From Chiloscyllium plagiosum (taxonomy: Eukaryota), in the NCBI RefSeq assembly GCF_004010195.1, contig NC_057718.1, forward strand, positions 39,165,143 through 39,229,142: 64,000 nt of DNA. Direction: 5' to 3'. The translations under genes and the position numbers were made by a program. The notes below the pieces were generated by a model. That model ran no database searches. It was not told the origin of the DNA and saw only the letters and a list, made by a program, of their open reading frames with translations. Shown piece after piece: positions 7,654 through 60,712 of the stretch; the first letter of the stretch is position 1, and the number at the start of each line of letters is the position of its first letter.

Positions 7654-9681
7654 CCTTGCCACTCCTAAATATTAACAAATATGTGTTCCCAAGGCTTCAA
7701 ATGAATAACTCTCTCATAGAATGGCAAGGGAATGGCAAAAGAACACCAATATGCCTTGGCTGTTAGGCAGAGCCATCCACAGCAGTTCTACAGAATCACT
7801 GCCATCTTGCTGAGTCCACTAATCGCTTTCTTAATCACTCTGTCTACCTGTGACAAAATTAAGCCCCAGGTCTCTCTCTATTTGACAACACTACCCAGTA
7901 TAATGGTATAAGTCTGTAGAAATGACTGCATTTTGTGAAGTGCAAATGTACTTTATAAATAAAAAATGAAGTCCCTGAATAAATGCAGCATTTTTCGATG
8001 TTCTTTTTCCAATAAGGATAAACAAATTAATTTGCTATGTACCGAACATATGTAAAACCTCAACCTTTGTTGTGCAATTATCTTTTAACATCCATATCAT
8101 TGTTTAGATAAAAATACTTGAAATCTCAGCTATGGACAAACATTGCTAGAACTATAGATAAACTGATATTCAAAAAAGAAAATTAGGTTACTATATTGGT
8201 TTACATCTGGCATTTAAGTCCAGCTAAAACACTAACCTATTTATCTAATGTGAGGTGTTCATTTTTAGCTTTTTCAGTTATAAGCAGCACTCAGCGATTA
8301 GAGTCTTTCTGAAAGAATACTGTGGTCATGGAAAGCAACAAACATTAACTCTACTGAAACAGGCTACTATTTACAGCTAATACGCAGAAATTGTTGGAAA
8401 TATTCAACTGGTAAGGCTCTGACACTTAAGAGAAAAGCAAAGTAGTGTGAATGGGCCTGAATGATGTGGGCAATGGCAGGTCAGTTGGTAAAATATAGCG
8501 AGATGAGATCCTCAACTGTCTAATTTTCCACTCAAGCTTTTAACAGCAAGACAGGAATCTCACTCGAAAGCGAAGTGAGGACTATTTGCATGCACTTACA
8601 CTTCACTGTTATCTAATCTCACCTCATTTATGTGCAATTTACTATTCTCCCACGTGTTGGAAAGAAACTAGACTGCAACAATTCCCAACACTTTTCTGGG
8701 CCTTCATTTCCTAACATCTCAGAACTTGGGTAGCCACCAACTGTAATGTTAAAGAGATTGCCATTGGAAAAACTGCCTTACTACATCCTCATGGCACATC
8801 TCCAACTCACTTTGAAAGGTGTTGTTGCCACTCCAAGGTACAGTATGAAAATGGCAAACTATTATTAAGTGCGTTGGACATATCTATGAAGATGTGGTGA
8901 ATCCATGACAAAGTCAATGTCAACCTCCATTCCCTTAGTGCTTATTCAGTTTGTGCTTACTTGGATGCTCCCAGCATCTTTGTCTTGACTTTTTACTCTT
9001 TGCCAACTCATTCAAAACTTACAACCTCACAGAACTTCCGTCTGTGCCTTTCAGCAAAGACACAAAGCCAGGTAGCTTACCTTCCACTGTTAACTTACCA
9101 CTGCCAATGTGCTTACATCAATATTTGGATAGACTTCAAAAATGCAGGAATTTGATTAAAATATTCAAACAGGAGTCAACTGCTACCAGGTTACACTATT
9201 GCATCCCCTGGTCATCCCTTGTCAATCAGTGTTGACACTGCCACTTCCTCAACAGATGCAAATTACAAGCAATATAGTAGCCGTATTTAAAAAGATCAAT
9301 AGTTACATCAAGTGAAAGTTGTAATTGGGACTGTACTCAACTTTTTTCATGTTTTTTTCTTTAAGATTCTTTTAATTCATTTTTTTTGCTCTGCAGAGCA
9401 ATGTCAATAAACTTAAATGGCATTAGAATTTGTTAAATGGGAATGATGCAGGCAATTTTGAAAAGGAGGTGAACAGTGCCTGATGAGAGGCAATCTAAAT
9501 CCCAGAGACATGGGCCAGATTTACATGAAGTTAGGAAGAATCTGTGGACCCTTAAAAATGGCAAGATGGATAGAGATGTGGAAGTTCTGTCCTCAGTTCT
9601 GAGAGATCCCATTTTTTGGGGGCAGGAGGGAGAGAATTGCATCATACTGACTGGAACCTGAAATCAGGAAGGCCATTTGAA

Positions 9682-9897
9682 TCAAGCAAGAATAGAAATT
9701 CCTGAAGGAACTCAGCAGGTCTGCCAACATCTGTGGAGAGAAAACAGACTTACTGTTTCAAAAAAGGGTCACTGGATTTGAAACGTTAATTTTGTTTTCT
9801 CTCCACAGATGTTGCCAGACCTGCTGAGTTTCTCCAGTAATTCCTATATTTATTTGTTTTAGATCATCAGCACCTACAGATCTTTATTTTGTTTTCG
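9682..9897 (+). mobile_element. Penelope-derived fold-back element (family B) with a degenerate hammerhead motif
   Basis: Inverted arms AACTCAGCAGGTCTGCCAACATCTGTGGAGAGAAAACA / TGTTTTCTCTCCACAGATGTTGCCAGACCTGCTGAGTT. Centre GGGTCACTGGATTTGAAACGTT. TSD GGCCATTTGAA at 9671-9681 and 9898-9908. Confidence 0.8.
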
Positions 9898-14876: not shown

Positions 14877-15050
14877 TGATGTGAAGCTGGAAAAGCACAG
14901 CAGGTCGGACAGAATCCGGGGAGCAGGAACGTCAACGTTTCGGGCTGAAACCCTTCCTGCTCCTCGGATACTGTTTGACCTGCTATGCTTTTCTAGCTTC
15001 ACATCTATTGACTCTGGCTTCCAGCATCTGCAGTCCTTACTGTCTCTAAA
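14877..15050 (+). mobile_element. Penelope-derived fold-back element (family A variant)
   Basis: Inverted arms GATGTGAAGCTGGAAAAGCACAGCAGGTC / GACCTGCTATGCTTTTCTAGCTTCACATC, then the tail CCAGCATCTGCAGTCCTTACT. The minus-strand centre GAAGGGTTTCAGCCCGAAACGTTG corresponds to hammerhead stem II, GAAA and stem III. Confidence 0.8.
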
Positions 15051-15282
15051 GTCTACCCATAGTGTGTGCACCGTTCCACCTCAGGATGTTGAGCTCGTGA
15101 TGTCCTTCATGCAAGATAGACTGGGATTACACTGACCCAAGCTGTTCCCTCCAGGTCCAGAACTTCAGTTCTGAGGAAGAATCTCTTCAGACTTGCAAAT
15201 ACAGCTAGGCCTGCTGAGTTTCTCTAGCATTTGTTTCAGATTTACAGCATCCACAGTATACACAGTAATGCACTAACTAAGG

Positions 15283-15885: not shown

Positions 15886-16160
15886 TACTACATGAATTAC
15901 AAACACATTGTAATTAGACGTCTTTCATTGAACAGTGTGTTTTGCAGAAAATGTATTTTTTCAGATTTTAGGCGTGAATTCACAACAATGCCAAGTATTG
16001 AAGCAGGTGATAGTGGCATTAAACTAGTATCTTGCAATTCATGGTCAATATAATAGTTTGTCTTTCAATTTCAAACTGCTTACAATAGGTTTCTCTGAAG
16101 CCTGCGAACACCTTGCCCCATGACCACTAAATAACAACATGATGCAAACTATTCAATTCT

Positions 16161-17687
16161 CCTTCGAATCCTCCCACTTCCTCCAGACCAAAGGGGTAGC
16201 CATGGGCACCCATATGGACCCCAGCTATGCCTGTCGCTTTGTTGACTACGTAGAACAGTCCATCTTCCGTAGTTACACCGGCACCACTCCCCACCTCTTC
16301 CTCCGCTACATTGATGACTGCATCAGCGCCACCTCGTGCTCCCGCAAGGAGGTTGAGCAATTCATCAACTTCACCAACACATTCCACCCTGACCTTAAAT
16401 TCACCTGGACCATCTCTGACACCTCCCTCCCCTTCCTGAACCTCTCCATCTCCATTAATGACGACCGACTTGAACTGACATTTTTTACAAACCCACCGAC
16501 TCCCACAGCTACCTGGATTACACCTCTTCCCACCCTACCTCCTACAAAAATGCCATTCGTATTCCCAATTCCTCCACCTCTGCTGTATCTGCTCCCAGGA
16601 GGACCAGTTCCACCATAGAACACACCAGATGGCCTCCTTCTTTAGAGATCGCAATTTCCCTTTCCATGTGGTTGAAGATGCCCTCCAACGCATCTCATCC
16701 ACATCCCGCACCTCCGCCCTCAAACCCCACCACTCCAACCATAACAAGGACAGAACCCCCCTGGTGCTCACCTTCCACCCTACCAACCTTCGCATTAACC
16801 GCATCATCCGCCGACATTTCCGCCACCTCCAAACGGACCCCACCACCAGAGATATACTTCCTTCCCCACCCCTTTCCACTTTCCGCAAAGACCGTTCCCT
16901 CTGTGACTCCCTGGTCAGGTCCACACCCCCCAACAAACCACCCTCCCGTCCTGGCATTCTCCCCTGCCACCACAGGAATTGCAAAACCGGTGCCCACACC
17001 ACTTCCCTCACCACCATCCAAGACTCCAAAGGAGCCTTCCACATCCATCAAAGTTTCATCTGCACATTCTGAAACAAATGTCATTTATTGAATCTGTTGC
17101 TCCCGATACGGTCTCCTCTACATTGGGGAGACTGGATACCTCCTTGCAGAGCGCTTTAGGGAACATCTCCGGGATACCCGCACCAATTAACGCCACCATC
17201 CCATGGCCCAATATTTCAACTCCCCCTCCCACTCTGCTGAGGACATGCAGGTCCTGGGCCTCCTCCACTGCCACTCCCTCACCACCCGACGCCTGGAGGA
17301 AGAATGTCTCATCTTCCGTCTCGGAACACTTCAACCCCAGGGCATCAATGTGGATTTCACCAGTTTCCTCATTTCCCCTTCCCCCACCTTACCTCAGTTT
17401 CATCCTTCCAGCTCAGCATTGTCCTCATGACTTGTCCTACCTGCCAACCTCCCTTCCCACCTATCTGCTCCACCCTCCTCTCTGACCTATCACCTCCATC
17501 CCCACCCCCATTCACCTATTGTACTCTTTGCTACCTTCTCCCCAGCCCCACCCATTTATCTCTCCACCCTGGAGGCGTCCTGCCTCTATTTCTGATGAAG
17601 GGCTTTTGCCCAAAACGTTGATTTTCCTGGTCCTTGGATGCTGCCTGACCTGCTGTGCTTTTCCAGCACCACTCTGATCTAAACTTT
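16161..17687 (+). mobile_element. 5'-truncated Penelope-like element (RT C-terminus, GIY-YIG endonuclease, terminal repeat with hammerhead motif)
   Basis: RT motifs QTKGVAMGTHMDPSYA and LFLRYIDD. GIY-YIG region NVIY..CCSRYGLLYIGETG..AERFREHL and RRLEEECLIFRLGTLQPQGINVDF. TSD TATTCAATTCT at 16150-16160 and 17696-17706. Confidence 0.92.
17592..17619 (+). ncRNA. Penelope hammerhead ribozyme motif with a mutated core (GAAA->AAAA)
   Basis: CTGATGA-A-GGGC-TTTT-GCCC-AAAAC-GTT. The G12->A change lies at a CpG. Confidence 0.7.
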
Positions 17688-25569: not shown

Positions 25570-26000
25570 AGTGTAATGCACTGCATATACTGGGAACGTT
25601 GCACATTAATTCACAGGCCCAGTTCTTTGCAGATGGAAAGAACATATATATGTATTGCACCTGTTCCAACACAACAAAATTAGTGACAGCCATTCAGTGC
25701 TTTGTTTTTCAGGCAAATGCTCTGACTAATCAGAACCAAACCTGCCTGGTTTAAAATTTAAACAAGCCTGGCTGTTAACTGTCAATCATCATTGATTGGT
25801 GAATTCTCCATGAGAATAGTTCTATAATTCAGAGTCCATTTGCCAGTCAGCACTCTCCTCTCATGCAGTGTAAATACTGGTTTTCTTCCTGAATTGGTAT
25901 TCATGCAAATTCCCCTGATGAGTGCAAGATGAAAGGCTTCAACAAAATGTGTCTTGTTTCTTTCCAGAAATATTCAAGTTCTGTACTACAAAACAATTAT
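25570..26000 (+). mobile_element. Old Penelope-like 3' end (family C) with a hammerhead motif at 25915-25940
   Basis: Resembles a GIY-YIG C-terminal remnant (LHILGTLHIN..) followed by CTGATGA-GTGCAAGAT-GAAA-GGCTTC. Confidence 0.6.
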
Positions 26001-27080: not shown

Positions 27081-28893
27081 ACGTCGGATGGATCAGTTTT
27101 TGTCCAATGTGTACAGGAGGGTTTCCTGACACAGTATGTCGAAGGGCTGACAAGACGGAAGGCCACACTAGATCTGGTGCTTGGTAATAAACCAGGCCAG
27201 GTGTTTGATTTAGTTGTAGATGAGAGTTGGAGAGAGTGACCATAATTCAGTTACGTTTAGTTTAGCGATGGAAAGGGATAGGTACATGCCACAGGTCAAG
27301 AGTTATCAATGGGGCAAGGGCAATTATAATGCGATTATGCAAGAATTAAGATGCATAGAATGGGGTAGCAAAATGAAGAGGATGCAGACAATGGAAATGT
27401 GGAGCTGGTTTAAGGAACAGATATTGCGTGTCCTTGATAGGTATGTCCCTGTCAGGCAGGGAGGAAGTGATAAGGTAAGGGAACCGTGGTTTACTACAGA
27501 AATTGCACCTCTTGTTACGAAGAAGAGGAGGCTTATGTGTCGATGAGGCAAGATGGCTCAGATGAGGCAATGGAGAGTTATAGATCAGGTAGGAAGGATT
27601 GAAATAGAGAGTTAATAAGAGCAAAGAGAGGACACGAGCGGTCTTTAACAAATATTATAAAGGGGAATCCTAAAGCGTTCTATAGGTATGTGAGGATGAT
27701 TAGAGTAGGAATAGGGCCAATCAAAGACAGAAGTGGGAAGTTGAGTGTGGACCCTGTGGAGATCGGAGAGGTACTAAACGAACATTTCTCATTGGTTTTC
27801 ACTCAGGAAAAGGAGAATATTGTTGAGGAGAAGAATGAGGTACGAGATATTAGACCTGAAAGGATCGAGGTTAGTTACAAACAGGTGTTATCAATTCTAG
27901 AAGGAGTGAAAGTAAACAAGTCCCCTGGGCCAGATGGCATTCATCCGAAGATTCTCTGGGAAGCTAGGGAGGAGATAGCAGAGCCTTTGGCTTTGATATT
28001 TGAGTTGTCATTGTCTACAGGTTTGGTACGAGAGGACTGGAGGATTGCAAATGTTGTGCCCTTGTTCAAGGGCAATAGAGATGACCCAGGTAATTATAGA
28101 CCAGTGAGCCTTATTTCTGCTGTAGGAAAGGTATTGGAAAGGATTATAAGAGAAAAGATTTATAATCATCTGGCAAGCAACAATTTGATTTCAGATAGTC
28201 AACATGGTTTCGTCAAGGGCAGGTCGTGTCTCACAAACCACATTGAGTTTTTGGAGAAGGTAACCAAGCATGTAGATGAGGGTAGGGCAGATGACTTGGA
28301 CGCAGGCATAGGTGGATGGATTAGTAAATTTGCAGATGACACTAAAGTCGGTGGAGTAGTGGACAATGTGGAAGAATGTTACATGTTGCAGGGGGACTTG
28401 GATAAACTACAGAATTGGGCTGAGAGGTGGCAAATGGAGTTCAATGCAGCTAAATGTGAGGTGATGCACTTTGGGAAGAATAACAAGAAGGTAGAGTACT
28501 GGGTCAATGGAAAGATTCTTGGTAGTGTGGATGTGCAGAGGGATCTTGGAATCCATGTACATAGATCCCTGAAAGTTGCCACCCAGGTGGATAGTGCAGT
28601 TAAGAAGGCATATGGTGTATTAGGTTTCATTCATAAAAGGATTGAGTTCCGGAGCTGCAATATCATGCTGCAACTATACAAAATGCTGGTGCGGCCACAC
28701 TTGGAATATTGTGTACAGTTCTGGTCCCCATATTTCAGGAAGGATGTGGAAGCATTGGAAAAGGTGCAGAGGAGATTTACCAGGATGTTGCCTGGTCTGG
28801 AGGGAAGGTCTTATGAGGAAAGGCTGAGAGACTTGAACCTGTTCTCATTGGCAAGAAGGCTAACAGGGAATTTGATACAGACATACAAGATGA
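27081..28893 (+). mobile_element. CR1 LINE ORF2 fragment with an internal in-frame RT deletion
   Basis: ORF 27690-28970 contains KSPGPDGIHP, DPGNYRPVSL, QHGFVKGRSCLTN, ISKFADDTK and LVRPHLEYCVQFWSP. It jumps from DEGRAD to DLDAGIGG at ~28290. Confidence 0.93.
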
Positions 28894-28992
28894 TGCAAAC
28901 TCCACACAGACAGTCTCCCGAGGCTGGAATTGAACCTGGCCCCATTGGCACTATGAGGCAGCAGTGCTAACCACTGAGCCGCCATGCTGCCC
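28894..28992 (-). mobile_element. HE1-type SINE 5' (tRNA-like) portion abutting the CR1
   Basis: Minus strand GGGCAGCATGGCGGCTCAGTGGTTAGCACTGCTGCC..GGTTCAATTCCAG..TGTGTGGAGTTTGC. Confidence 0.85.
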
Positions 28993-29759
28993 AACATATT
29001 TGAATTGATATATATTTCAGGGTAAACCCCATTAGGTGTATAGTTCTCTAAGTGGCAGCAGTTAAATGACTTTTTCATGTATGAGTTCAAATATTGAGAT
29101 CCAATATGTTATATTACAGCTGAGCTCTGGCCAATGTCCCTTACTATTATCTAGCGAGGGCCACGAAGTAGTAATATAGAACAGAAATCATTTGCCTCAA
29201 AAGCAGACAGGACAGAAGACAAACTGTAGTACCAATGCTGCTGTCATGGTTCAGATCAGCTCACTCAATGGACACCAAAGATTGCACTGGAAATCTTTTG
29301 GACTATATAGCACAGTTAATTTGACACCCAGAGAGTTATGCTTCTAGAGAAATGAATGCTTATCACTGAGGGTTCCAGTTCAAAGAAATTGAGGAACCAA
29401 GGTTTTGAGCCAGTATGATAATAACCATTCTTACTATTAAATGTCGCAGAGTCAATAATGACAGGGGTCCATATACTTATTCATTACTCATATTGGGTGC
29501 TTCCAGAAAATGCAACCCTCGGGGAGAGGCTAACTACAGTTCCCCTTTAACAACATAACCATTTTCTATCCAGTGAAGTTAACTCCCTTGGGCTGTTTCT
29601 CCTCATAAACGTATTAACACTTAAAACTCAAAGACTGGTGGAATGAGTTTAGGATGAAGGAACTGGTTTATTAGGTTAATGGTCTTTCTGGTACCAGCAA
29701 ATGATTTTGTAGTGGGACATGAGTCTATGTTCAAATTGAGTCCACTGCAATATCCCAAT

Positions 29760-31091
29760 GGATAAAGTGAGGACTGCAGATGCTGGAGATCAGAGTCAAA
29801 AAGTGTGGCATTGGAAAAGCACAGCAGGTCAGGCAGCATCTGAGGAGCAGGAGAGTCAACATTTTAGGCATAAGCCCTTCATCAGGAAGGTGGAGGTGGG
29901 AAGGGGGCTGAGAGATAAATAGGAGGGCGGGATTGGGGTGGGGATGAGGTAGCTGGGAAGGGCGATGGATAGATGCAGGTGGGAGGTGAAGGTGATAGGT
30001 TGGAGAGGAGGGTAGAGCTGATAGGTGGGAAAGAAGGTGACAGGTAGGACAGTTCAAGTGGGCAGTTCCGAGTTGGATAGTTGGACCTTGAATGAGGTGG
30101 GGCAAGGGGAGATGAGGAAACCGGTGAAGTTGACATTGATGCCGTGTGGTTGGAGGGTCCCAAGCGGAAAATGAGGCGTTCTTCCTCCAGGCATCAGGTA
30201 CCTTGGATTTGGCGGTGGAGGAGGCCAAGGAATTGCATGTCCTTGGCGGAGTGGGAGCGGGAGTTGAAGTGGTTGGCCACAGGGCAGTGGAGTTGTTAGG
30301 TGCGTGTCCCAGAGATGTCCCCTGAAACATTCCATGAGAGACTATATTGACAGCAATGGACACAGTAAATGAGGTGTTTGGATGCGCAGGAAAATCTCTG
30401 CCGGATATGGAAGGATCCTTTGGGGTCTTGGACGGAGGTGACAGGGTGGTGTTGGCACAGGTTTTACACCTCTTGCAGTGGTAAGCAAAAATGCCGGGAG
30501 TGGAGGGCTGTTTGCTGGGTGACATGGACCTAACAAGGGAATCATGGAGGGAATGGTCTCTGCAGAATGCTGATAGATGTGGGGAGGGATAACAAGTCTC
30601 TGGTGGTGGAGTCTGATTATAGGTGGCAGAAATGGCAGAGGATAATGCACTCCCCCTCCCAGTCTGCCAAGGACATGCAAGTCCTGGACATCCTCCACCG
30701 CCAAATCCAAGCCACCCGACGCCTGGAGGAAGAATGCCTCATTTTCTGTCTTGGGACCCATCAATGTCGACTTCACCAGTTTCCTCATCTCTCCTCCACC
30801 CACCTCATCCCAGATGAACCCTCCAACTCAACACCACCCTCTTGAACTGTCCTACCTGCCCATCTTTCTTCCCACCTACCAGTTCCACCCTCCCCTCAGA
30901 CCTATCCCCATCAACCCCCACCTGTTCTAGCTATTGCCTTCCCGGCTACCTCACCCTCACCCTCCTATTTATCTCTCAGCCCCCTTCCCTCCCATCACAT
31001 TCCTGATGAAGGGCTTATGCCCGAAACGTCGATTCTCCTGCTCCTCGGATGCTGCCTGACCTGCTGTGCTTTTCTAGTGTCATACGTTTTG
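29760..31091. mobile_element. Penelope-like insertion with inverted structure: minus 3' part (29760-~30645) joined to an inverted plus copy (~30646-31091)
   Basis: Both arms carry RRLEEE.LIF and the terminal repeat. Perfect 16-bp TSD ACTGCAATATCCCAAT at 29744-29759 and 31092-31107. Confidence 0.9.
30998..31036 (+). ncRNA. Minimal type-I hammerhead ribozyme motif with an intact core
   Basis: CTGATGA (31003-31009), extra A, GGGC-TTAT-GCCC (stem II), GAAA, then C-GTC with the predicted cleavage after 31030. Stem III is the palindromic ACGT and stem I is weak. Confidence 0.8.
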
Positions 31092-32130
31092 ACTGCAATA
31101 TCCCAATATTGACCTCAGTATCAGGGGAGGAACTTGAAGGAGGACTCTGTGAGGCATCAGTCAGCATCTCAGCAGAAATCAATTCAAGATGACAAATTAG
31201 TCTGCAAATCCACCGAGCGCAGCGGCTGCTAGAGTTTACTGGTGCAATAACATGTCAGAAACATAAAAGGCTAACCTTTTACACATTATAGGCCAACAGC
31301 TGTTAAAAGCAGCTTATAAACAGACTCATGACAATGCTGGCATCAGAACACATTAACTGGCACAGCTCACTGACCCATGGGTCTGTAATATGCCTATTCG
31401 TTAGCCCTCATATTGCCTGGCAACTGTTACACGTGTGTTATTCACCTTTCAAGACTCAGGAGCCCCAAAGGGGGCAGGTAACTGCCTGATTGTCATTCAA
31501 TCTTGTTGAAGCAAATGGAAATATCTGCAGTGGGGTTGTCAACAACTTTATGACCCATTCTGGGGCAACTATAGTGGCATTAAATTCAGCTCCATTACCC
31601 TGGAACAGTGGACCACTGAAGCTCTGCTGGGAATTGGAATGATATGGTTAGTGTGCTCCCACACAATATATTGTCCATTAAAATTAATATGCATTCCAGG
31701 CACACAAGCTTTGCTTCATGTTCATTAATTCTGAAATCCGACCGTGATCTGTACTTGTTTCTTTCCTCATGCTCTGCGATGTTCTTAAACTGCTTGCTAC
31801 CATCCATCTCACGGGAATTCTTTTTGTGAACTCTTCTTGGATACTTGTGTGAGATAAGGAAAGCTCAAATCCCAGAGGATTATATTAAGTTCCACTGGGT
31901 TATATCAAAAGCATATAAAAATGATTATTACTACATGGAGGTAGAAAGGATTTGCATTCCACTGAGTATTCTCTTTTAGCTTTGGTAGTAAGAAACATAT
32001 CGAGATCCATTAAGATCAAGCAACATCAAACAGAAATTTGTTTTCCTTTGGAAAATAACAAATAATCTCTCCCGCACTCCTGCATTCTGTCTATGCCAAT
32101 CAACTAAGCAATTTGCTCATTCAAATCAAT

Positions 32131-32151
32131 ACACACACACACACACACACA
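32131..32151. repeat. (AC)10 microsatellite
   Basis: Seen directly. Confidence 0.95.
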
Positions 32152-35100
32152 GATGGAAGAAAGTACTTAAAATAAAATCTGAACAGCTGTAAGACATTTT
32201 ACATCAGCGAATGGAAAAACCGATGTATAACAATATTTCTTAAGACTCAGGTCAATACAAAAGCTGAGTAATGTAATCGTTTCACATACTTCAATAAAGA
32301 ATTTGAACCAAATATTTAAATATCCAAAATATGTTTTATAAAAGTATTTCAAAGAGATCAAGCTAAGCTTCTCATTGGGAAACCTGGTGGGCAGTGATTT
32401 TCATTGTCGTTATCTAATGTTAATGGGTCCATAACATTGTTACGACTACTCCATCATAATGTGATATGGTCAAAGCACCTGCCTAATTCTGGTGGTAGAC
32501 TTCATTTGATATGGAAACTCTGGTACTACAACATTAATAGGCTGTCATTTGTCGTCAAAACAGGTTGAAACCTGTGCGGTTAATGTTCTAATCAGTTACA
32601 CAGGCAATGCAAACAAAAAGGCCTTTGAAAGCATGTCTGGGAATTAATTTTGCGGGCATCAGAGGATCTTGGCTACTGGAACTCCAAGATCACCCCCACC
32701 TCACCACCTACAACCACTAACAATCCTCCACAAATCTTGAAGCCATTAAATTGATAAACTTAAATGAAAACATGAGGTCAGTACTGAAGAATCCTTTGCA
32801 CCACAGGTCATGACCAACACTCTCAAAGGAAGGAATCTTAAAGTGGTCTGAGTGATGCAATGGAGAGATTTGTAGCAGAATCATGTGAAAAGTCCAGCAA
32901 TGCCAAACTTGATGTCAGGAGCATCTCACTCCATCTCAAATACATTTTCTCTCCATTTTTCTTGCCAATTAAACAGACTATAGTTTGCTATGCACTTTAC
33001 TAACACTGTAACTCCCCTCATTATTATTAAGCTTCCTAGCTAACAATCAAGAATGCTCGCCACGGAGGTCAGAGGGTGTACCTGGCAATTTCAGCCTGCT
33101 TTTGGCTGTAAAAGCTTCCATGTTGCTCAGACAAAACAGCATCTCACTCCACAATCCATGGGCACCAGCCAAATGCAACCGGATAAGCACTCAGCTAACA
33201 TATTGGACCGGGCTGCATCTCCGTGCTGCTCGCTTACTCTTCTAGCATTCATTTATTTAGCACCTACCTGCAGGCTCGCAGCATCCTTGCCTTGCCTCAC
33301 CTCACCAAGTCTGTTAGCCTTTGGCACTAGCTGAAGTGCCAACACACTATCAGTACTGCCAAATTGACATGTTCTTTTCCACAGATAGGCTCCATGACAT
33401 TCTTGTCAGTAGGAATCTGTTCAGGAGGATCACCTCATTGTATGCCACACTGAGATGCCAATTCTACAACTAGATGATATAACAGCAGTGATCTTTCTCA
33501 ACACCTCTCTGCCTGCCTAGAGTGTGTAAGGAAGCCACATACAAACTTCTAGAATTTAATTACTATTAGAGTGACAGACAGAGAATCATCAGTCACCAAA
33601 AAATAATGTGGATGAGGTTCTCCACCAAGTGTTTGGAAAATCAATTTCATCAGCGACACCTTGGTCACAAGAAACTGAAATGTGAAATTTCCTTTGTAAA
33701 CATATAAAACAAAGTGGGTGCAAAGGCAATGCATATCCTGGTAGGCATTGCTTATGAGAAACTCAGGCACAACAACGTAATGTGAAAGCAGATTTTTATA
33801 AATGGTTCAAATAAAGTCCTTTCTGAGCTCTATTGCACAGGAAATGCATTTTTGTTTATTTAACACTAGGCCAGAATGCATTCACATAAAGAAACGGTTC
33901 CAGGTTAAGAACAGTAATATTACTCGGCATTTATTTGCATGTGAATTTACATGCAAATGTTAGCATCAATGAAATGAACAAAGTGGTATCGTTACCCTGG
34001 ATAAAAAGGTTGCTATGATGTTTTTTAAAACAACCAATGAACACAATTAATAGTTGCATTAATTATTTTTGTGTAATCATTTGAGATTTCTCTCATTGAG
34101 AAGCATATATACCTGTACTTACTTTTCCTATAGCAGTTATTTTCCTCCCTAATCCTCTTTCTTTTACTTTTATAAAGACTGCTTAAATTTGCAAGCATTT
34201 CTCCTGCATTTAGCATTCCTATTCACCTGGGTTAACCTATTCAGGAGACACTCATTTTCAGTTTGGGATTACTACACATGCTCTATGGCACAGTGCTGTA
34301 GACCAACAAATGGAAGACTGAATGCTCACTTAAAACTATGATGGCATATATTAAACATATATTCAACGACTGGGCTTAAAAAATGAAGCTAGCTTTTGTA
34401 AAACTGGACTGTCTCGTTAAAATACTGGATAGTTCACTTTTGTAAATTGAAACTGATACTGGAAAGAGTTGGAAATGATGAAGATAGCAAAAGAAGATCT
34501 GAAAAACCAAAGTTGGTGAAGGACCAATACAATGAGTTCCCTTATCATAAACAAACCTTAATTAATCTAATTGGAGTAGGATCAGATGATCGCACCCAGT
34601 TCCCAAAGAAACAAAAATCTTGGAAGTGGCTGCTTGCCAAGGACTAATGGATTAAACATGCAGCTTTTCTAAGAGTTGAGAGTCAATGTCATGGCAGATC
34701 AGCTAATACAGATTTTGGTCTGCTGTCTTTACTCGTCATTAAATATGCCAATCTTTATTTACAATCCTGTTCTGCTGCTTTAGGTAATGGAATTGCTGCA
34801 GTGCAAATCAGATGCAGGTGAGAGAAAAGGAGACACCTACAATAATGAGTACATCACTACAGTCTGACTTCACTAGAACAATGCACTTAGAAAGTACTGA
34901 AGTGTATTATCTTAATCTTAAGAAAGTGACCTCTATTTCACAAGAACATTCGTGCCTTGCACACAGTCAATAACACAAAACTAAAATAATGAACTTACTA
35001 ATACTAACTTGGAAGTCCAATTTATTCTGGAGATACTCGCTTTTGATTGCTTCCTAGTTTTGATTGTCTCTGTAAACTGAAAAGTCTCACAGTATATTCT

Positions 35101-35267: not shown

Positions 35268-37300
35268 TTTTTTTTCTAAAAATAAAATTTATTTGTAAAA
35301 TCCATAAAAATGTATTGCATCAGATTTCAAAGTTGACTTCTAACAAGATTGATGTTTTCCAATACAGTATGCGATCCCTTTAGTTGTCTCAATGCACTTA
35401 CAATATTCACTCCATGTCAATTATACAGCTTAAATGGTTTTACAGCTTCCAACCCCAAAGTGTTCAAAGATGAGCAGTTTAAACAGCTGCCATTCCCTAT
35501 TGCGCTTTTGTGACAGCTTCCCTGAGTTTTATTGCAGCCTTCAGCATAGAGTCCTATATCTTGAACTGTGCTAGTTACAACTCTCTGTACTGGGAAGCCA
35601 GCACGTTTTGGACAGACCAAAGGTAGTCTTTCACTGAGTTGATGGTTCTCCACCATCAGTTGATGTTTATGTCAATTTGCATCTCTGGGATCAGAGCTGG
35701 GACCTCATGTTGCAGCTGTACAAGACATTGACAAGGCCACTTATGGAATACTGCATACAATTCTGGTCACCCTGTTATGGGAAGGATGTTCTTACTCTTG
35801 AAAGGGTGCAGGAAATATTTCTAAAGATGTTGCCGAGTTTGGAGGGTTTGAGTTACAAGGAGAGGCTGAATAGGCTGGGACTTTTTTCCCTTGAGCATCA
35901 GAGACTGAGGGGTGACTTTATGGAGATTTATATAATCATGAGGGGCAAAGATAAGATGGATAGCCATGGTCTTTTTTTAATGGTTGGGAAGTCCAATACT
36001 AGAGGGCAGTGGTTTAAGATGAGAGGAGAAAGATTTAAAAGGAATCTAGGGATTAACTTTTTCACACCGTGGGTGGTGCACATATGAAATGAGCTGACAG
36101 AGGAAGTGGTAGAGGTGGGTACAATTACAAGATTCAAAAGATATTTGGACAGTTGCATGAATAGAAAAGGTTTAGAGGGACATGGACCAAATGCAGACAA
36201 ATGAGACTAGTTCAGTCTGTGATACCTAGTCAGCATGGACAAGTTGGGCCAAACGGTCTGTTTCCATGCTGCATGACTCAATGACCAGCCTTTAGAGTCA
36301 GTCCTGCATTTCAAAGCAACTTGCTGTGAAACAGGACAAAATAAATTGCATCTTTTCCCAGAACTGCTTTGTAAAGGCACATTCTAGATGGAGTTGGATG
36401 ACAGTTTCTTCTCCACTGCAGCCATCTCAAGTGCAGAAGGTGTGAGACTTCACATGTGCAGAAAGGATCTGATGGAACAGCAGCATAACACCAGGTAAGC
36501 TAAATTTTGTACTTGTTTGAATGTTCTGGTAATGAGGCATTCTTCCAAACGTCTTTGACAATCTGCTCAGGAAATCATCTGACAGGATCCAACATCTCCT
36601 TTTCCCACACGTTTTGAGAATGTTACATGCAGATCACTGATTGATGAACTTCTGGTAGAAACTGTTTTTCTACATAAACCTTTCAATAAGGACAGTTGAT
36701 ACAGTTCAACTGAATGGAGTGTTCCATAACAATGTGATCAGATCTATCCTTCACAGTCCCAGAGACAGATGGAACCACAGCATGAGGTGACACATGGTGT
36801 TTGCTTCTGACAGTCCACACGCTGCATGATGCAGCTGCACACAAAAGTGACTGAATATCAGGAAGAGGACAACACTGGGTACTTTCTATCCCCTTTATCA
36901 AGAGATTTATATAGAGTGCTCCAGCAGACACAATTGATTTTCAATCTGCAGACAAAATGGCAGATGGCTCAGGAGACTGCCACAGTGCAGGAGCTGTATA
37001 GGTGAGTACCTCATAATAACTGACCAGGTTTACACCTGCAGTGGGGGTGCAGCTTGTTCCTCTATTCTTGTTTTATCAGGGCTACATGCTCCTTCCAATT
37101 TTCAGCACATATTCTCGTCCCTTAAAAGCATATCATTGGCACCCTCAGGCAGCCGGACCTGATGGTGAAAAGGGCAAAGGATCAGCTGGTTATTTGGCAA
37201 AGAATATTGCTTTGCTCTTGCCATGATTTACCTTGGTTCTTGAAGCCAGTTCATACAGGTTGCAGATAATTATCAGCCTGCGACCCAACAGCAAATCTCA
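35268..37300 (-). mobile_element. Decayed Tx1-like non-LTR element 3' half, interrupted by a CR1
   Basis: Minus translations: KVNHGKSKAIFF, EQIVKDVWKNASLPEHSNK, DGCSGEETVIQLHLECAFTKQFW (Cys/His knuckle) and WRTINSVKDYLWS. AATAAA plus an A-tail at ~35268-35293. Confidence 0.75.
35686..36284 (+). mobile_element. CR1 LINE 3' fragment inserted in the Tx1-like element
   Basis: ORF 35677-36087 LQLYKTLTRPLMEYCIQFWSP..RLRGD and a CR1 tail. Confidence 0.92.
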
Positions 37301-40140: not shown

Positions 40141-42010
40141 AGCATTTTACCTAAGGTACCCAGATCTTATCCTCACTATTATAGCATATGGTTCAGAGAA
40201 TGACATTGCACAGCAAGAAGCTCTCCGGTCCATGTTTCTTATAGCTTTGGAAGACCTAATCAATCAATCTCTTCCTTCTTTGTACAGTTGTCCTGCAATG
40301 TTGTCTGTATTCAAATATTTACTCAATTCCCTTTTGAAAGTTTTTTTTGAACCTGCTTCCAGTCCATTCCAGATAACAAGTCAGGGTGTGGAACAGAGTC
40401 GCAACATTCACTTCTCTTTTGACTCTTTTGCCAATTATCTTCAAATCTCTGTCATCTGAATAACAAACCACTTGTACTGTCTTTAAACAGTTAATTCTTA
40501 CTCATCAAAAATTATTATCCATTTAACCTACCTTTAAACTTCTCTGCTCAAAATGGACCAACCAATTATAATTTTTAACACATAAATGAAGCTATTTATA
40601 CTGGTTTAGTTTTAGTAAGCCTTCTCTACATCCTCTCCAAAAGCTTGTTCTCCTTCCCAAAATGTGGTGCCTTGACAGGGTTTAAACCCAATCGATGATT
40701 TCTAATGGTGTGGCCTACCATTCTTACTTTTGTACTCTGTGTCTCTATTTACAAATCCATGTTTTTTTGACAGGATTATCAATCTGTCCAGCCAACAAAG
40801 ATTAATGCATATGAATCTCATTCTTCCTGAAATTATTTTTAGTGGTTATCCTATTAATACATTATTGCATCCATATAAGGCCAGAATTCCAGAACCTTGG
40901 AAAATCACTATTTTAACTGAAACAATTATTTAACACATCTTACTGTATAATTTTAACTTATTTCCAATATCCTGTTGTGTCTTTTTGAGATTTTGCAAAA
41001 AATAAGATTGAAACAGACTGGAATAACTCCTTCCTTTCCTAATGGATTTGTGGTAGAGATAAATCCAGGGCAATTTTCACCTCAGTCATTAACAGTTTAC
41101 CTTTCCTGAATAAATATCATCTATACCTTTTGGTCTTGAGTTTTTTATTCCCACTCAAAGCCTTTAACTGAAATGCACATGGGTCCTAGAAATACAATGC
41201 AAGTGTTAATGCAGATTGTTTTGGAAAATATTTTGAGGTACAAAAGATATCCTCCCTATAGATTTTTCATTTTTTTTCTAATGAAATAATTTCAGAAATT
41301 ACTGAGGCTTTACTGGATGAGGGATTAAGCACGAGTACTCTGTGGATGCACAGTAGGACAGCCATCAAAACTGCAGTTTCCCCAGTGGAACCATTTTTCT
41401 GAATGCATACACTGACCCGTGGAACAATACGTCGGTAAACTGGCCGCTCTTCTGTGATTGATCCAGGAATGGAAACAGAATTTCTGGATCAAATTACCAG
41501 GATTGTACGCCACTGCGGATGTGTACTTCTTTACAGATGAACTTTTTAAAATTTATATTATAAAATGATATAACAAAGAAGAGACTATTCAGGTCAACAA
41601 ACTTTAAAGAGTGTTTATCTTTCATCTTCGAAAGAGCTATCTGATTAGTTCCCCTTCCCTACTTCAAAGTCTTGTAAAGTACTTTTTTCCCCATCAAGTA
41701 TTTGTACTGTTCCCTTCAAACAGTTACTATTTCTTGTATCCTCACCACTCTTCCAGCCAGTGCAATCTTAATCATAAAATCTTGCTCTCTACAAAATAAA
41801 TTCCTCTCTCATCTCTGGTTCTTTTGCCAATTGCCTTAAATCTGTGTCCTCTGGTTACAGGCCTTTCTGCCACCAAAACAGTTTATTTTTATTTTCACTC
41901 TTACAAGCACCTGTACGTTTGAAAATCTCAATCAAATTTTCCTTATCATCCTTTACTCAAAGGAAAACGATGTTAACTTCTCCAGTCTCTGCATCTAATT
42001 GAAATCCCTC

Positions 42011-42115
42011 AAACAAACAAAAAAACAAATTGCTAGAAAAACTCAGCAGGTCTGGCAGCATCTGAGCAGAGAAAATAGAGTGAACGTTTGAGTCCAGTGA
42101 CCCTTGTTCAGAAGC
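42011..42115 (-). mobile_element. Penelope family-B terminal fragment with a degenerate hammerhead
   Basis: Minus strand CTGAACAAGGGTCACTGGACTCAAACGTTCACTC..GATGCTGCCAGACCTGCTGAGTTTTTC. Confidence 0.7.
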
Positions 42116-46215: not shown

Positions 46216-46378
46216 ACATTTGTTTTGATTTATTTATGCATTCATTATATGCCAGGTTTTCCAAAAATTGATTAGGTAAGGGAGTTTGTGGTTGAGAAAA
46301 GAAAACCATTTCTTTGTTTTCTTTCAAATGTATTTGATAAGAATGACAAGTTGTCATGCCATTTTTTTTCACAACAAA

Positions 46379-46545
46379 GTCAAGAGTCTGGTGCTGGAAA
46401 AGCACAGCAGGTCAGGCAGCATCCGAGGAGCGGGAGAATCGACGTTGCTTCTCCTGCTCCTCAAATGCTGCCTGACTTGCTGTGCTTTTCCAGCACCACA
46501 CTCTCGATTCTGATCTCCAGCATTTGCAGCCCTCACTTTCTCCTC
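46379..46545 (+). mobile_element. Penelope-derived fold-back element (family A), 167 bp
   Basis: ~60-bp inverted arms plus the CTCCAGCATTTGCAGCCCTCACTTTCTCC tail. 12-bp TSD TTTCACAACAAA at 46367-46378 and 46546-46557. Confidence 0.88.
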
Positions 46546-47655: not shown

Positions 47656-48539
47656 CTGTACAAGACAACTAAACTATTGTATTGTGCTAATTCTAAATTG
47701 CAATTGTGCACAATGTGCCAAGCAGTTTGGAAGATTTTCCTGATTTGACATTTATAACTGTCAAAAGATACGCTGCAATTGTTCAAAAAGATCTCAGTAT
47801 CTGGCTTTAAAAATTTGTTGCTTTCCCTATTCTACAATCAAATGTGAGCTAACCCTTTTGTCAAATGTTTGAAACAAAGATTTCAAAATATTGCACTATG
47901 ATTGAACTGGCCCTTTTTATAAAAAAATTCATTCACAGGATGTGTCACTGGCTAGATCAGCATTTACTTTCAATCCTAATTGCCCTTGAGCTGACTGCTT
48001 TCTTGGCCATTTCAGGGGGTGGTTATGAGTCAACCACCTTGCTGTGCATCTGGAGTCACATATAGACCAGGTCAGGTAAGGATGGTAGGTTTCTTTCCCA
48101 ATGATACCCAACTGGGTTTTTACGACAAGTGACGTGGTTTTTACGACAAGTAATGTAATTCCAGATGTTTAATGGAGTTACATGTCACCATCTGCCATTA
48201 TTTAATAATGATTAGATTAGTTCACAATAAACTAAGATGCTGACACACACAGGATCCTGATTTAACTTTATGCCTACTGATTAGTGTGTGCAGGAAGAGA
48301 TCCAAAGAAGGCACGGCTAAGAAAATTTGTGTAGGGGCCAGGATAGCAGTGGTGTGGTCAACAGTTTAGTTATAATCCACAGTAGTAAATTATCTGCTAA
48401 AGTCGTGATTATATATCTTTATGCTTTGATTTTGAAGGCAGCTGTTTATGTAAGGTCCTGCAAATCAATGTGTCTTTTCAGAGTTTCAAACCTACTTTTA
48501 AAGAAGTCTGCACCAGAACCCTTACATCGTTCTGTACCT

Positions 48540-57155: not shown

Positions 57156-57247
57156 CAGATTTCTCAACATAGCTGACATTATCTAACACTTTAGTAAAAA
57201 GCAAGTGTGACACAGGAGTGGAACTGGACATTAAAATTTTGAATGAA

Positions 57248-60200
57248 CAGTGCGGACTTGTGCTGGTCAGCAAGTGGGCACAGTGCGGACTCACGGTGGT
57301 CAGCAAGTAGGTACAGTGCGGACACATGGTGGTCAGCAAGTAGGCACAGTGCGGACTTGTGCTGGTCAGCAAGTGGGCACAGTGCGGACTCACGGTAGTC
57401 TGCAAGTAGGCACAGTGCAGACTCATGGTGGTCAGTTAGTAGGCACAGTGCGGACACATGGTGGTCAGTAAGTAGGCACAGTGCAGACTCATGGTGGTCA
57501 GTTAGTAGGCACAGTGCGGACACATGGTGGTCAGTAAGTAGGCACAGTGCAGACTCGTGGTGGTCAGCAAGTAGGCACAGTGCAGGCGCATGGTGGTCAG
57601 CAAGTAGGCACAGTGCGGACGTGGGCTGGTCAACAAATAGGCACAGTGTGGACACATGGTGGTCAGCAAGAAGGCACAGTGCAGATTCATGGTGGTCAGT
57701 AAGTAGGCACAGTGCGGGCTCATGGTGGTCAGTAAGAAGGCACAGTGCAGACTCATGGTGGTCAGCAAGTAGGCACAGTGAGGACTCATGGTAGACAGCA
57801 AATAGGCACAGTGCGGACACATGGACATTAGCAAGTAGGCACAGTGCAGACTCATGGTGTTCAGCAAGTAGGCACAGTGCAGACTCATGGTGGCCAGCAA
57901 GTAGGCACAGTGCAGACACATGGTCAGCAAGTAGGCACAGCGCAGACTCATGGTGGTCAGTAAGTAGGCACAGAGCGGACACATGGTGGTCAGCAAGTAG
58001 ACACAGTGCGGGCTCATGGCAGTCGGCAAGTAGGCACAGTGCAGACTCATTGTGGTCAGCAGGTAGGCACAGTGCGGACATATGGTGGTCAGAAAGTAGG
58101 CACAGTGCGGACTCATGGTGGTCAGCAAGTAGGCACAGTACGGGCTCATGGTGGTCAGTAAGTAGGCACAGTACGGGCTCGTTGTGGTCAGTAAGTAGGC
58201 ACAGTGCAGACCTATGGTGGTCAGCAAGTAGGCACAGTGCAGACTCATGGCAGTCAGCTAGTAGGCACAGTGCGGACATATGGTGGTCAACAAGTAGGCA
58301 CAGTGCGGACTCATGGTGGTCAGCAAGTAGGCACAGTACAGACTCATAGCAGTCAGCAAGTAGGCACAGTGCAGACTCATGGTGGTCGGCAGGTAGGCAC
58401 AGTGCAGACTCATGGTGGTCAGCAAGTAGGCACAGTGTGGAAAAATGATGGTCAGCAAGTAGGCACAGTGCGGACTTTAGCTGGCCAACAAATGGGCACA
58501 GTGTGGACAAATGGTGGTCAGCAAGTAGGCACAGTGTGGACAAATGGTGGTTAGCAAGTAGGCACAGTGCAGACTCATGGTGGTCAGCAAGTAGGCACAG
58601 TGCAGACTCATAGTGGTCAACAAGTAGGCACAGTACGGGCTCGTTGTGGTCAGCAAGTAGGCATAGTGCAGACTCATGGTGGTCAGCAAGTAGGCACAGT
58701 GCGGACACATGGTGGTCAGCAAGTAGGCACAGTGCAGTCTCATGGTAGTCAGCAAGTAGGCACAGGGCAGACCCATGCTGGCCAGCAAGTAGGAACAGTG
58801 CAGACTTGCGCTGGTCAACAAATAGGCACAGTGCAGACTCATGGCAGTCGGCAAGTTGGCACAGTGCAAGCTCATGGTGATTAGCAAGTAGGCACAGTGC
58901 GGACTCGTGGTGGTCAGCAAGTAGGCATAGTGCGGACTCCTGGTGGTCAGCAAGTAGGCACAGTGCAGACTCATGGTGAGCAGCAAGTAAGCACAGTGCA
59001 GTCTCATGGTAGTCAGCAAGTGGGTACAGTGCAGACTCATGCTGGTCAGCAAGTAGGCACATGCGGACTTGCGCTGGTCAACAAATAGGCACAGCACAGA
59101 CTCATGGCAGTCGGCAAGTTGGCACAGTGCAGACTCATGGTGATTAGGAAATTGGCACAGTGTGGACTCGTGGTGGTCAGCAAGTAGGCACAGTGCAGAC
59201 TCATGGTGGTCAGCAAGTAGGCACAGTTGGATTCATGGGGATCAGCAAGCAGGCACAGTGTGGGCTCATGGTGATCAGCAAGTAGGCACAGTGCAGACTC
59301 GTGGTGGTCAACAAATAGGCACAGTGCGGGCACATGGTGGTCAGCAAGTAGGCACAGTGCGGACTTGTGCTGGTCAACAAATAGGCACAGTGCAGACTCA
59401 TAGCAGTCGGCAAGTAGGCACAGTGCGGACTCATGGTGGTCAGCAAGTAGGCACAGTGCAGACTCATAGTGGTCAGTAAGTAGGCACAGTACAGGCTCAT
59501 GGTGGTCAGCAAGTAGGCACAGTACGGGCTCATCGTGGTCAGCAAGTAGGCACAGTGCGGACACTTGGTGGTCAGTAAGTAGGCACAGTACAGGCTCATG
59601 GTGGTCAGCAAGTAGGCACAGTGCAGACTCATGGTGGTCAGCAAGCAGGCACAGTATGGGCACAATCTGGTCAGTAAGTAGGCACAGTGTGGGCTCATGG
59701 TGGTCAGCAAGTAGGCACAGTGCGGACTCATGGTGGTCAGCAAGTGGGCATAGTGCAGACTCATGGTGGTCAGCAAGTGGGCATAGTGCAGACTCATGGT
59801 GGTCAGCAAGTAGGTACAGTGCGGTCTCATGGTGGTCACCATGTAGAAACAGTGTGGACTCATGGTGGTAAGCAAGTAGGCACAGTGTGGGCTCATGGTG
59901 GTCAGCAAGTAGGCACAGTGCGGACTCATGGTGGCCAGCAAGTAGGCACGTTGCAGGCTCATGGTGGTCAGCAAGTAGGCACACTGCGGGCTCATGGTAG
60001 ACAGCAAGTCGGCACAGTGCAGACTTGCGTTGGTCAATAATAGGCACAGTGCAGACTCATGGCAGACGACAGGTAGGCACAGTGCAAACTCATGGTGAAA
60101 ATGTGTTGCTGGAAAAGCGCTGCAGGTCCGGGAGCATCCAAGGAGCAGGAGAATCGACGTTTCGGGCACGAGCCCTTCTTCGGGCTCATGCCTGAAACGT

Positions 60201-60712
60201 CGATTCTCCTGCTCCTTGGATGCTGCCTGACCTGCTGCACTTTTCCAGCAACACATTTTCAGCTCTGATCTCCGGGATCTGCAGTCCTCACTTTCTCCTA
60301 GCAAACCCATGGTGGTCAGCAAGTAGGCACAATGCGGACTCATGGTGGTCAGCAAGTAGGCACAATGCGGTCTCATGGCGGTCAGCAAGTAGGCACAGTG
60401 CAGGCTCATGGCGGTCAGCAAGTAGACACAGTGCGGGCTCATGGTGGTCAGCAAGTAGGCACAATGCGGTCTCATGGTGGTCAGCAAGTAGGCACAGTGT
60501 GGGTTCATGGCGGTCAGCAAGTAAACACAATGCAGACTCATGGTGGTCAGCAAGTCAGCACAGTGCGGATTCATGGTGGTCAGCAAGTAGAGACAATGCG
60601 GACTCATGGTGGTCAGCAAGTAGATACAGTGCGAATTCATGGTGGTCAGCAAGTAGGCACAGTGCGGGCACATGGCAGTCAGCAGGTAGGCACAGTGTGG
60701 TGTCATGGCAGT
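57248..60712. repeat. 33-bp minisatellite of roughly 98 units, consensus CAGTGCRGACTCATGGTGGTCAGCAAGTAGGCA
   Basis: Direct tandem periodicity, 11-aa repeats in the ORF track, and no unique spacers. Confidence 0.97.
60098..60300 (+). mobile_element. Penelope-derived fold-back element (family A) inserted into the minisatellite
   Basis: ~75-bp inverted arms, each containing GGGC-loop-GCCY-GAAACGTC, plus a tail. TSD GCAAACTCATGGTG (60084-60097) / GCAAACCCATGGTG (60301-60314). Confidence 0.9.

What the first reader, a model, noticed from the sequence alone, without database searches (positions are those of the whole stretch)
30998..31036. Intact minimal hammerhead ribozyme, one of about nine copies from three Penelope families
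Seen: CTGATGA-A-GGGC-TTAT-GCCC-GAAA-C-GTC at 31003-31030. Related motifs occur at 17592 (+), 29856-29885 (-), ~14925-14957 (-), ~46440 and 60150-60205 (family A), at 9770-9790 and 42080-42112 (family B, stem II GGGTC-ACTG-GACTC), and at 25915-25940 (family C). Established: Penelope-like elements carry minimal type-I hammerheads whose stem III is a short palindrome thought to need dimerisation, and an extra A between A9 and stem II is tolerated in the CChMVd viroid hammerhead. Inference: the core (CUGANGA, GAAA, UH) is retained across families while stems I and II differ, so the motif was under selection in the active elements. Any transcript crossing 31030 on + could self-cleave, or cleave as a dimer with another copy.
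Basis: partly seen in the sequence, partly recalled or inferred. Interest (0 to 1): 0.75.

Follow-up and report, generated by a model that had tools for sequence, protein, structure and literature searches.

The report
Fossil Penelope hammerhead in dead retroelement
This is a miniature hammerhead-ribozyme motif of a known type at the end of an old, broken copy of a very abundant Penelope-like jumping gene; it is the only complete one of the nine cited sites, and this copy is likely inactive on its own.

Summary
The motif is exact at 31003-31030 and beyond chance (0.007 per shuffled window). It ends one arm of an old head-to-head Penelope-like insertion (29760-31091, 16-bp target duplication, 34-nt one-sided tail), likely Neptune clade and shared by a related species. 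It fits the published minimal PLE hammerhead (extra A, G10.1-C11.1, palindromic stem III), but stem I is only 2 bp, and any + transcript that includes the upstream arm is predicted to trap it in a long duplex. Of nine cited sites only this one is complete: two carry G12A, one U4C, and five are partial or weak; family C is not shown to be Penelope. Across ~10^5 laid contigs, the common non-CpG variants shown fall only at positions the fold leaves free, supporting selection in active parents; CpG decay hits G12 in 11-16%. One shallow RNA run gave no reads on this locus's flank and no end pile-up at the cut. Verdict: an ordinary member of a known kind, probably inert here. The bolder lead, that copy ends pile at the ribozyme's edges (capped RNA start, perhaps the cut site), was noted by this scan before on other DNA, including this genome.

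The parts
31003..31009 (+). 5' core C3-A9 (CUGAUGA, N7=U)
   Evidence: N7 T>A in 47%/29% of laid DNA depth
31010..31010 (+). extra unpaired A between A9 and G10.1
   Evidence: feature listed in PMC4209133
31011..31022 (+). stem II, 4 bp G-C plus 4-nt loop
   Evidence: pair probability 0.78-1.0 in four contexts
31023..31030 (+). G12-A13-A14, palindromic A15.1-C-G-U16.1 with no loop III, C17; predicted cut between 31030 and 31031
   Evidence: cut site inferred from hammerhead numbering
30999..31034 (+). stem I outer limits: 2 contiguous bp (31001-31002 with 31031-31032), U.U mismatch, 1 further bp
   Evidence: (P 0.001-0.03)
31031..31091 (+). conserved sequence 3' of the cut, shared by families A and B; short end of this arm
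30649..31091 (+). arm A1: 5'-truncated PLE copy, end of the GIY-YIG region plus C-rich 3' UTR plus hammerhead
   Evidence: tblastn with P0001/P0003, E 2e-10 and 3e-11; blastn
29760..30648 (-). arm A3: inverted partner of the same insertion, hammerhead with G12A, 34-nt longer tail
   Evidence: 79% identity over 474 bp
29744..29759 (+). left target-site duplication (13-16 bp; the first three letters may be element-derived on the right side)
31092..31107 (+). right target-site duplication
16124..17670 (+). longer family-A copy: frameshifted RT, Cys linker remnant and GIY-YIG, hammerhead at 17592 with G12A
   Evidence: RVT_1 E 0.0018, GIY-YIG E 2e-5; 59-85% to shark PLE proteins
14886..15046 (.). 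short head-to-head family-A stub; both arms begin inside or just after the hammerhead
46375..46545 (.). short head-to-head family-A stub joined at the stem III palindrome; 12-bp duplication at its ends
60095..60299 (.). short head-to-head family-A stub inside a 33-bp minisatellite; the - arm is near complete but has U4C at the junction
9680..9862 (.). family-B head-to-head stub, 5' core lost; 10-bp duplication nearby
42008..42112 (-). family-B stub with G8C and no G12
25915..25942 (+). weak hammerhead-like site ('family C'): stem II 2 bp, stem I 0 bp; PLE origin unproven

Best explanation
The motif is a minimal type-I hammerhead carried at the 3' end of an old, 5'-truncated, head-to-head Penelope-like insertion (likely Neptune clade); it was likely kept by selection in the active parent elements and is likely inert or very slow in this copy. 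Shown: the sequence, the element context, a single insertion event (target duplication), decay of the partner arm, and family-wide variation avoiding the core. Inferred from homologous systems: in the parent RNA two copies pair through the ACGU palindrome, probably helped by the element's own protein, and cut after GUC at 31030/31031. Copies are primed downstream of the cut on uncut RNA, which is why each insertion carries the whole motif plus a tail. After insertion the motif decays like its neighbours, CpGs first. This copy has simply escaped so far.
For: Motif and chance level. PLE context: RVT_1 and GIY-YIG in the sister copy, 4 shark PLE proteins at 59-85% identity, tblastn to both arms. 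One event: 16-bp duplication and 34-nt one-sided tail, as described in PMC8557442 and PMC3846280. Old: the arms are 79% identical, A1 has 23 private changes in 345 upstream columns, and the junction and flank are present in organism B at about 2.6% divergence (records 9 and 15). High copy: 113,444 and 100,118 contigs laid. Selection in parents. Neutral decay: G12A in 11% and 16% of DNA depth and in 2 of 3 full-length window copies. An intact 28-nt motif is expected in about 14% of copies at this copy's rate, CpG excess not modelled. Low activity here: active fold 5.6-7.2 kcal/mol above the MFE and duplex with the inverted arm. Mechanism by analogy: PMC4209133 (no monomer cleavage, weak dimer cleavage); PMC11167929 (protein-assisted, not needed for insertion, no RNA-seq ends at the cut).
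Against: No cleavage assay exists for this family. The copy matches the family majority at all 76 positions 30999-31074 (inferred from the shown rows). The family-level test rests on 40 of 132 rows and on reads >=82% like this copy. ViennaRNA ignores core and tertiary contacts. 19 of 101 foreign minimal hammerheads have an equal or larger fold penalty, so the penalty is not disqualifying. The RNA evidence is one sample, read at 2%.
Confidence: 0.75

Rival explanations
1. This copy is an active or exapted ribozyme that cuts host transcripts crossing 31030 on +.
For: Core complete. No difference from the family majority over 30999-31074 while upstream DNA has 6.7% private changes. The insertion is kept in a second species.
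Against: Stem I 2 bp with P<=0.03; a private upstream hairpin (30993-30997 with 31004-31008) sequesters the 5' core; duplex with the inverted arm. No intact same-strand partner in 64 kb. No reads on the unique flank 31176-34770 in X21, 24 of 30 bins empty, shallow. No host exon found: 0 of 128 ORFs hit Pfam. One intact copy in three is within chance.
Confidence: 0.07
2. In family A the motif is kept mainly for another job (promoter or start-site element, or binding site for the PLE protein), and cleavage is vestigial because stem I is too short.
For: Stem I is shorter than in 74 of 98 foreign look-alikes, which have >=3 bp. Copies share sequence only from 30998-31001 onward (table 7). Hammerhead mutants of the Anolis element still insert in vitro. 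Naiad PLEs lack hammerheads.
Against: Variation falls on exactly the positions a hammerhead leaves free. Stem II stays paired in other subfamilies. The D. virilis PLE hammerhead also has a 2-bp helix I.
Confidence: 0.16
3. Chance resemblance to a hammerhead.
For: No Rfam hammerhead match at E<=10.
Against: 0.007 per shuffled window; it sits at the known position in a PLE; the Rfam miss is expected, by inference, for a motif with no loop III.
Confidence: 0.02

Closest known systems
Minimal hammerheads (min-HHR) of metazoan Penelope-like elements, Cervera and de la Pena 2014 (PMC4209133)
   Same: Type I, full core, extra nucleotide between 9 and 10.1, G10.1-C11.1, palindromic 15.2-16.2 with no loop 3, in the terminal repeat; mostly single dispersed motifs, some opposite-strand pairs 100-700 bp apart.
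   Different: Helix II is 4 bp (7-8 in S. mansoni) and helix I is 2 bp plus a mismatch (4-5 typical; 2 in D. virilis). No cartilaginous fish is named in the parts read or in the one searchable supplement (file 1 not searchable).
PAc (Poseidon, Anolis carolinensis) hammerhead, Frangieh et al. 2024 (PMC11167929)
   Same: Vertebrate EN+ PLE; hammerhead upstream of two reverse-transcription start sites that give the optional tail; no RNA-seq ends at the cut.
   Different: Poseidon rather than a Cys-linker (likely Neptune) element; tested biochemically (protein-assisted), whereas this one is untested and sits in a dead copy.
EN+ PLE insertions with inverted 5'-truncated partner, tail and TSD (PMC8557442, PMC3846280)
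   Same: Head-to-head arms, a 30-40-nt tail at one end, a target duplication.
   Different: Nothing structural. In this window 4 of 5 head-to-head pairs have both joins inside the hammerhead.
Non-LTR retrozymes (bioRxiv 10.64898/2026.07.22.740005)
   Same: PLE-derived hammerhead-bearing sequence; reported in one chondrichthyan.
   Different: Defined as tandem arrays with two or more hammerhead units; none here.

Membership tests
PLE minimal type-I hammerhead | Core CUGANGA, GAAA, UH | tested here: met
PLE minimal type-I hammerhead | Unpaired nucleotide between A9 and 10.1; G10.1-C11.1 pair | tested here: met
   A31010; G31011-C31022 (features)
PLE minimal type-I hammerhead | Palindromic 15.2-16.2, no stable helix III | tested here: met
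   ACGU at 31026-31029; self-duplex only -1.7 kcal/mol
PLE minimal type-I hammerhead | Helix II hairpin | tested here: met
   4 bp, P 0.78-1.0
PLE minimal type-I hammerhead | Helix I closing the junction (4-5 bp typical, 2 bp in D. virilis) | tested here: inconclusive
   2 bp + U.U + 1 bp; P<=0.03; the two pairs show no common non-CpG variant among shown rows, and no covariation is seen
PLE minimal type-I hammerhead | Located in the terminal repeat of a PLE, sense strand | tested here: met
   downstream of GIY-YIG remnants on the same strand
PLE minimal type-I hammerhead | Self-cleavage as a dimer or with protein help | not testable with these tools
   needs an assay; the polyA single-cell reads are unsuited
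EN+ Penelope-like element | RT followed by C-terminal GIY-YIG endonuclease | tested here: met
   sister copy; P0001 has both; this insertion keeps only the EN end
EN+ Penelope-like element | Inverted 5'-truncated partner, one-sided 30-40-nt tail, TSD | tested here: met
Neptune clade | Cys-rich CX2-5CxxC linker between RT and EN | tested here: met
   C-x4-C-x2-C in P0001, remnants in two window copies; definition
Neptune clade | RT phylogeny groups with Neptune rather than Nematis or Poseidon | not tested
   no reference sequences fetched
Non-LTR retrozyme | Tandem array of two or more hammerhead units | tested here: not met
   TRF, 7 rows, none with a hammerhead unit
Rfam hammerhead families | Covariance-model match | tested here: not met
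   none among 19 matches at E<=10

The most novel reading that the evidence does not exclude
The genome's many copies record the element's RNA ends. Copies pile up starting at 30998-31001, often with an extra G, so the capped RNA starts at the first base of stem I and the hammerhead is the first ~36 nt of the message. A second class of inverted arms starts at 31031-31036, just after the cut. The ribozyme would then be a self-decapping switch that did cut in vivo, and the genome holds the fossil proof that in vitro and RNA-seq work has lacked.
Probability: 0.25. Interest if true: 0.55.

Novelty: new member of a known kind. Interest (0 to 1): 0.2.

Why it matters
As a single motif it matters little: such hammerheads are reported in the terminal repeats of PLEs across animals, by the thousand per genome. 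What they do in vivo is still open (PMC8557442, PMC11167929). A family with ~10^5 laid contigs offers a large natural mutational record and a map of copy ends, so the questions 'was the core selected' and 'was the RNA ever cut in vivo' can be tested by computation. This locus is a poor ribozyme candidate, but it supplies a natural matched pair: an intact arm and a G12A arm from one insertion.

Tried and rejected
Rfam scan: no hammerhead; the miRNA-like hits are the fold-back stubs. No whole genome is held, so family data came from laid public runs, with truncated tables. Viral contigs: 0 matches to the motif. Metagenome contigs: 123 loci, 99 distinct contexts, none printed as sharing this family's tail, so they served only as a comparison for stem I; the core was fixed by the pattern, so they say nothing on core conservation. 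Run search: no RNA holder listed. X22 laid 0 reads, no test. Depletion of intact cores in RNA reads: G12A 21% in RNA against 11-16% in DNA, but the tail CpG control is also higher (15-19% against 9-13%), so inconclusive. Host gene: 0 of 128 ORFs >=55 aa in 18-44 kb (27.5-31.1 kb excluded) hit Pfam; an intron is not excluded. ORF remnants upstream of the B copy at 42112 and of site C: no RT or GIY-YIG in 6 frames. An ORF start inside the motif as in PAc: the two ATGs (31006, 31017) each include a polymorphic position (31007, 31017), so rejected as a conserved start. The state of 31019-31057 in the organism-B ortholog could not be read, because contigs break there. The dimer could not be scored as one structure because it is pseudoknotted; cofolding gave a non-hammerhead dimer. 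Lunse et al. 2017 on PLE hammerhead dimers is not held; I know it only through the review PMC6765202. Literature searches for a shark report and for a cap or untemplated G at PLE ends (listing only, 12 of 18 shown) showed none; subscription papers and repeat databases were not searchable. Earlier-findings look-ups by place and by sequence gave nothing.

Full report
Observation. The sequence CTGATGA-A-GGGC-TTAT-GCCC-GAAA-C-GTC is at 31003-31030 on +. In hammerhead numbering: C3-A9 31003-31009, an extra A at 31010, stem II 31011-31022, G12-A14 31023-31025, A15.1-C-G-U16.1 31026-31029, C17 31030. A descriptor scan of both strands found 2 hits, this one and a weak one at 25915. 300 dinucleotide shuffles gave 0.007 hits per window of this quality. 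Rfam gave no hammerhead among 19 matches at E<=10. Of the nine cited sites only this one is complete. 17592 and 29885 carry G12A, 60184 has U4C at an inversion join, 14956, 46440 and 9770 lack the 5' core, 42112 has G8C and no G12, and 25915 has a 2-bp stem II and no stem I. An 18-nt tail motif occurs 11 times with up to 3 mismatches.

Context. The motif ends arm A1 (30649-31091, +), which abuts an inverted arm A3 (30648-29760, -). The arms are 79% identical over 474 bp. A 16-bp duplication flanks the pair (29744-29759 and 31092-31107), and A3 runs 34 nt further than A1. This is one insertion with the inverted partner, one-sided tail and target duplication described for endonuclease-bearing PLEs (PMC8557442 passages; PMC3846280 passages). 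A longer sister copy at 16124-17670 has RVT_1 (E 0.0018) and GIY-YIG (E 2e-5) remnants. It matched 4 proteins among 128 candidates, all named from Chiloscyllium punctatum, at 59-85%, so the host is by inference a related shark. These proteins hit both arms. One has a C-x4-C-x2-C linker between RT and endonuclease, the mark of Neptune and Nematis; I ran no tree. The insertion is old: A1 has 23 private changes in 345 upstream columns. In organism B a contig spans the inversion join (4 differences in 89) and another spans 31058-33284 (58 in 2227). Family B shares only the tail with A. Site C has no second copy, tail or ORF remnant, so 'three Penelope families' is shown for one, plausible for a second and open for the third.

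Selection. Laying public runs on 30920-31140 at 82% likeness placed 113,444 and 100,118 contigs from two DNA runs. The tool showed 40 of 132 variant rows; the weakest shown is about 11% in its best run. Within 30999-31034 the non-CpG rows are at N7 (47% and 29%), two loop II positions and 31033, the stem I mismatch. That is 4 of 4 in the 8 positions, of 30 non-CpG positions, that the fold leaves free (p=0.003; I chose the free set from the model). 0 of 22 constrained positions vary against 7 of 38 in the tail (p=0.03). CpG decay hits the core freely: G12A 11% and 16%, C15.2 12% and 16%, C17 10% and 13%. This fits selection in active parents and neutral decay afterwards. At this copy's rate a 28-nt motif survives in about 14% of copies, CpG excess not modelled, so one intact copy in three is unremarkable. 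Against this, the copy also matches the majority through the 44-nt tail (P about 0.05), though a three-copy Fisher test gave p=0.28. In 98 foreign contexts of the same core from metagenomes (127 matches in 123 loci, 99 distinct, 1 dropped for short flanks), stem I is >=3 bp in 74. The mean is 3.5 against 1.7 for shuffled partners (0 of 2000 shuffles reached it), and C17 is not G in 96. The motif class is therefore real, and this family has an unusually short stem I.

Can this copy cut? In four contexts stem II forms (P 0.78-1.0) but stem I does not (P<=0.03), and the active fold lies 5.6-7.2 kcal/mol above the minimum. In three contexts a hairpin between 30993-30997 and 31004-31008 takes the 5' core. 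In a like-for-like test the penalty is 4.7 against a median of 2.4 in 101 foreign motifs (of 109; 8 lack the first pair), and 19 of them are as high or higher; the model ignores core contacts. A + transcript from 29750 pairs nearly every base of the motif with arm A3, which is transcribed first. The only other full-length same-strand copy is G12A. In the RNA run X21 (single-cell polyA, 2% read) 3241 family reads lie in both orientations with no pile-up of ends, and none lie on the unique flank 31176-34770. This is weak evidence from one unsuited library. No host exon was found (0 of 128 ORFs). In the literature, a single S. mansoni min-HHR did not cleave and dimers cleaved weakly (PMC4209133; abstract, results, discussion and part of methods read). 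The Anolis PLE hammerhead cleaved only with the element's protein, was not needed for insertion in vitro, and left no RNA-seq ends (PMC11167929; passages and second half of main text). The extra A of CChMVd moderately slows cleavage (PMC3705267 passages).

Mechanism. Shown: anatomy, context, age and family variation. Inferred: in the parent RNA, tandem copies pair through ACGU, probably with help from the PLE protein, and cut after GUC. Reverse transcription starts downstream of the cut on uncut RNA, so insertions carry the whole motif. This copy is a fossil of that device and is probably silent or very slow (0.75). Rivals: an active host ribozyme (0.07), a non-catalytic role in family A (0.16), chance (0.02).

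The bolder lead. In 4 of 5 head-to-head pairs in the window both arms begin at positions equivalent to 31005-31036. Genome-wide, alignments stop at 30998-31001 with unrelated sequence before them (1355, 1018, 696 and 522 contigs in X2; agreement 0.30-0.33). The consensus before 30999 ends in G in both DNA runs, and 30998 reads G in 21% and 14%. The deepest inserted letter at a fold-back join among the 12 rows shown is a single G before 30999 (table 5c). 14 of 15 shown joints are opposite-strand, linking 30998-31004 to 31031-31047, and 11 of them fall at 31031-31039, right after the predicted cut; 58 rows were hidden. I noticed the clustering before looking, but the capped-start reading comes from earlier notes of this scan (e1-9960851, e1-7857997, e1-9895832), and e1-9958889 found no role for the cut site. 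Caveats: other subfamilies with different 3' UTRs also stop aligning at 30998; a G there would pair with C31035 and could be templated; joints need about 20 letters a side and inverted arms collapse in contigs. I put the full reading (capped start plus in vivo cut) at 0.25.

Comparison and novelty. It works like, and meets all sequence-level features of, the PLE minimal hammerhead, except that helix I is inconclusive; activity is untested. It is not a tandem retrozyme (bioRxiv 10.64898/2026.07.22.740005 passages, supplements not seen). Searches for a shark report and of one of two supplements of PMC4209133 found none, but the class is described as general in PLEs (PMC6155905 and PMC6765202 passages). 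Lunse et al. 2017 could not be read and may list such motifs. Verdict: new member of a known kind; interest 0.2.

Noticed in passing
window 14886-15046, 46375-46545, 60095-60299, 9680-9862: Four short head-to-head PLE stubs whose joins all fall inside the hammerhead; they produce the miRNA-like Rfam hits.
   Followed up: partly
window 57247-60708: 33-bp minisatellite (about 87 + 12 copies, 82-85% matches) interrupted by a PLE fold-back stub at 60095-60299.
   Followed up: no
window 27603-28970 (+) and 46788-47831 (-): LINE reverse-transcriptase remnants, CR1/L2-like by recalled motifs; the second runs over an N gap.
   Followed up: no
window about 42120-42500 (-): Translation resembles an LTR-retrotransposon integrase remnant (recalled motif; no Pfam support) directly upstream of the family-B stub.
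   Followed up: no
window 960-1549, 35694-36282, 53348-53932: A dispersed repeat of about 580 bp in three copies, 72-76% identical; not identified.
   Followed up: no
window 51426-51653 and 52043-52270: 228-bp direct duplication at 98.7% identity; recent duplication or assembly artefact.
   Followed up: no
window 31049-31066 and 10 other sites: The 18-nt tail motif is shared by families A and B while their stems differ; it may be the protein-binding or priming signal.
   Followed up: partly
window 15171-15236 (+): Uncited B-like copy with the 5' core but an internal deletion, next to the stub at 14886-15046.
   Followed up: partly
L001-L123: The same core with a GGG/CCC stem II is common in metagenome contigs (about 860 stretches estimated), likely host animal DNA, with covarying 3-6-bp stem I.
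   Followed up: partly
window 5517-5539, 46841-46910: Assembly gaps (N runs).
   Followed up: no
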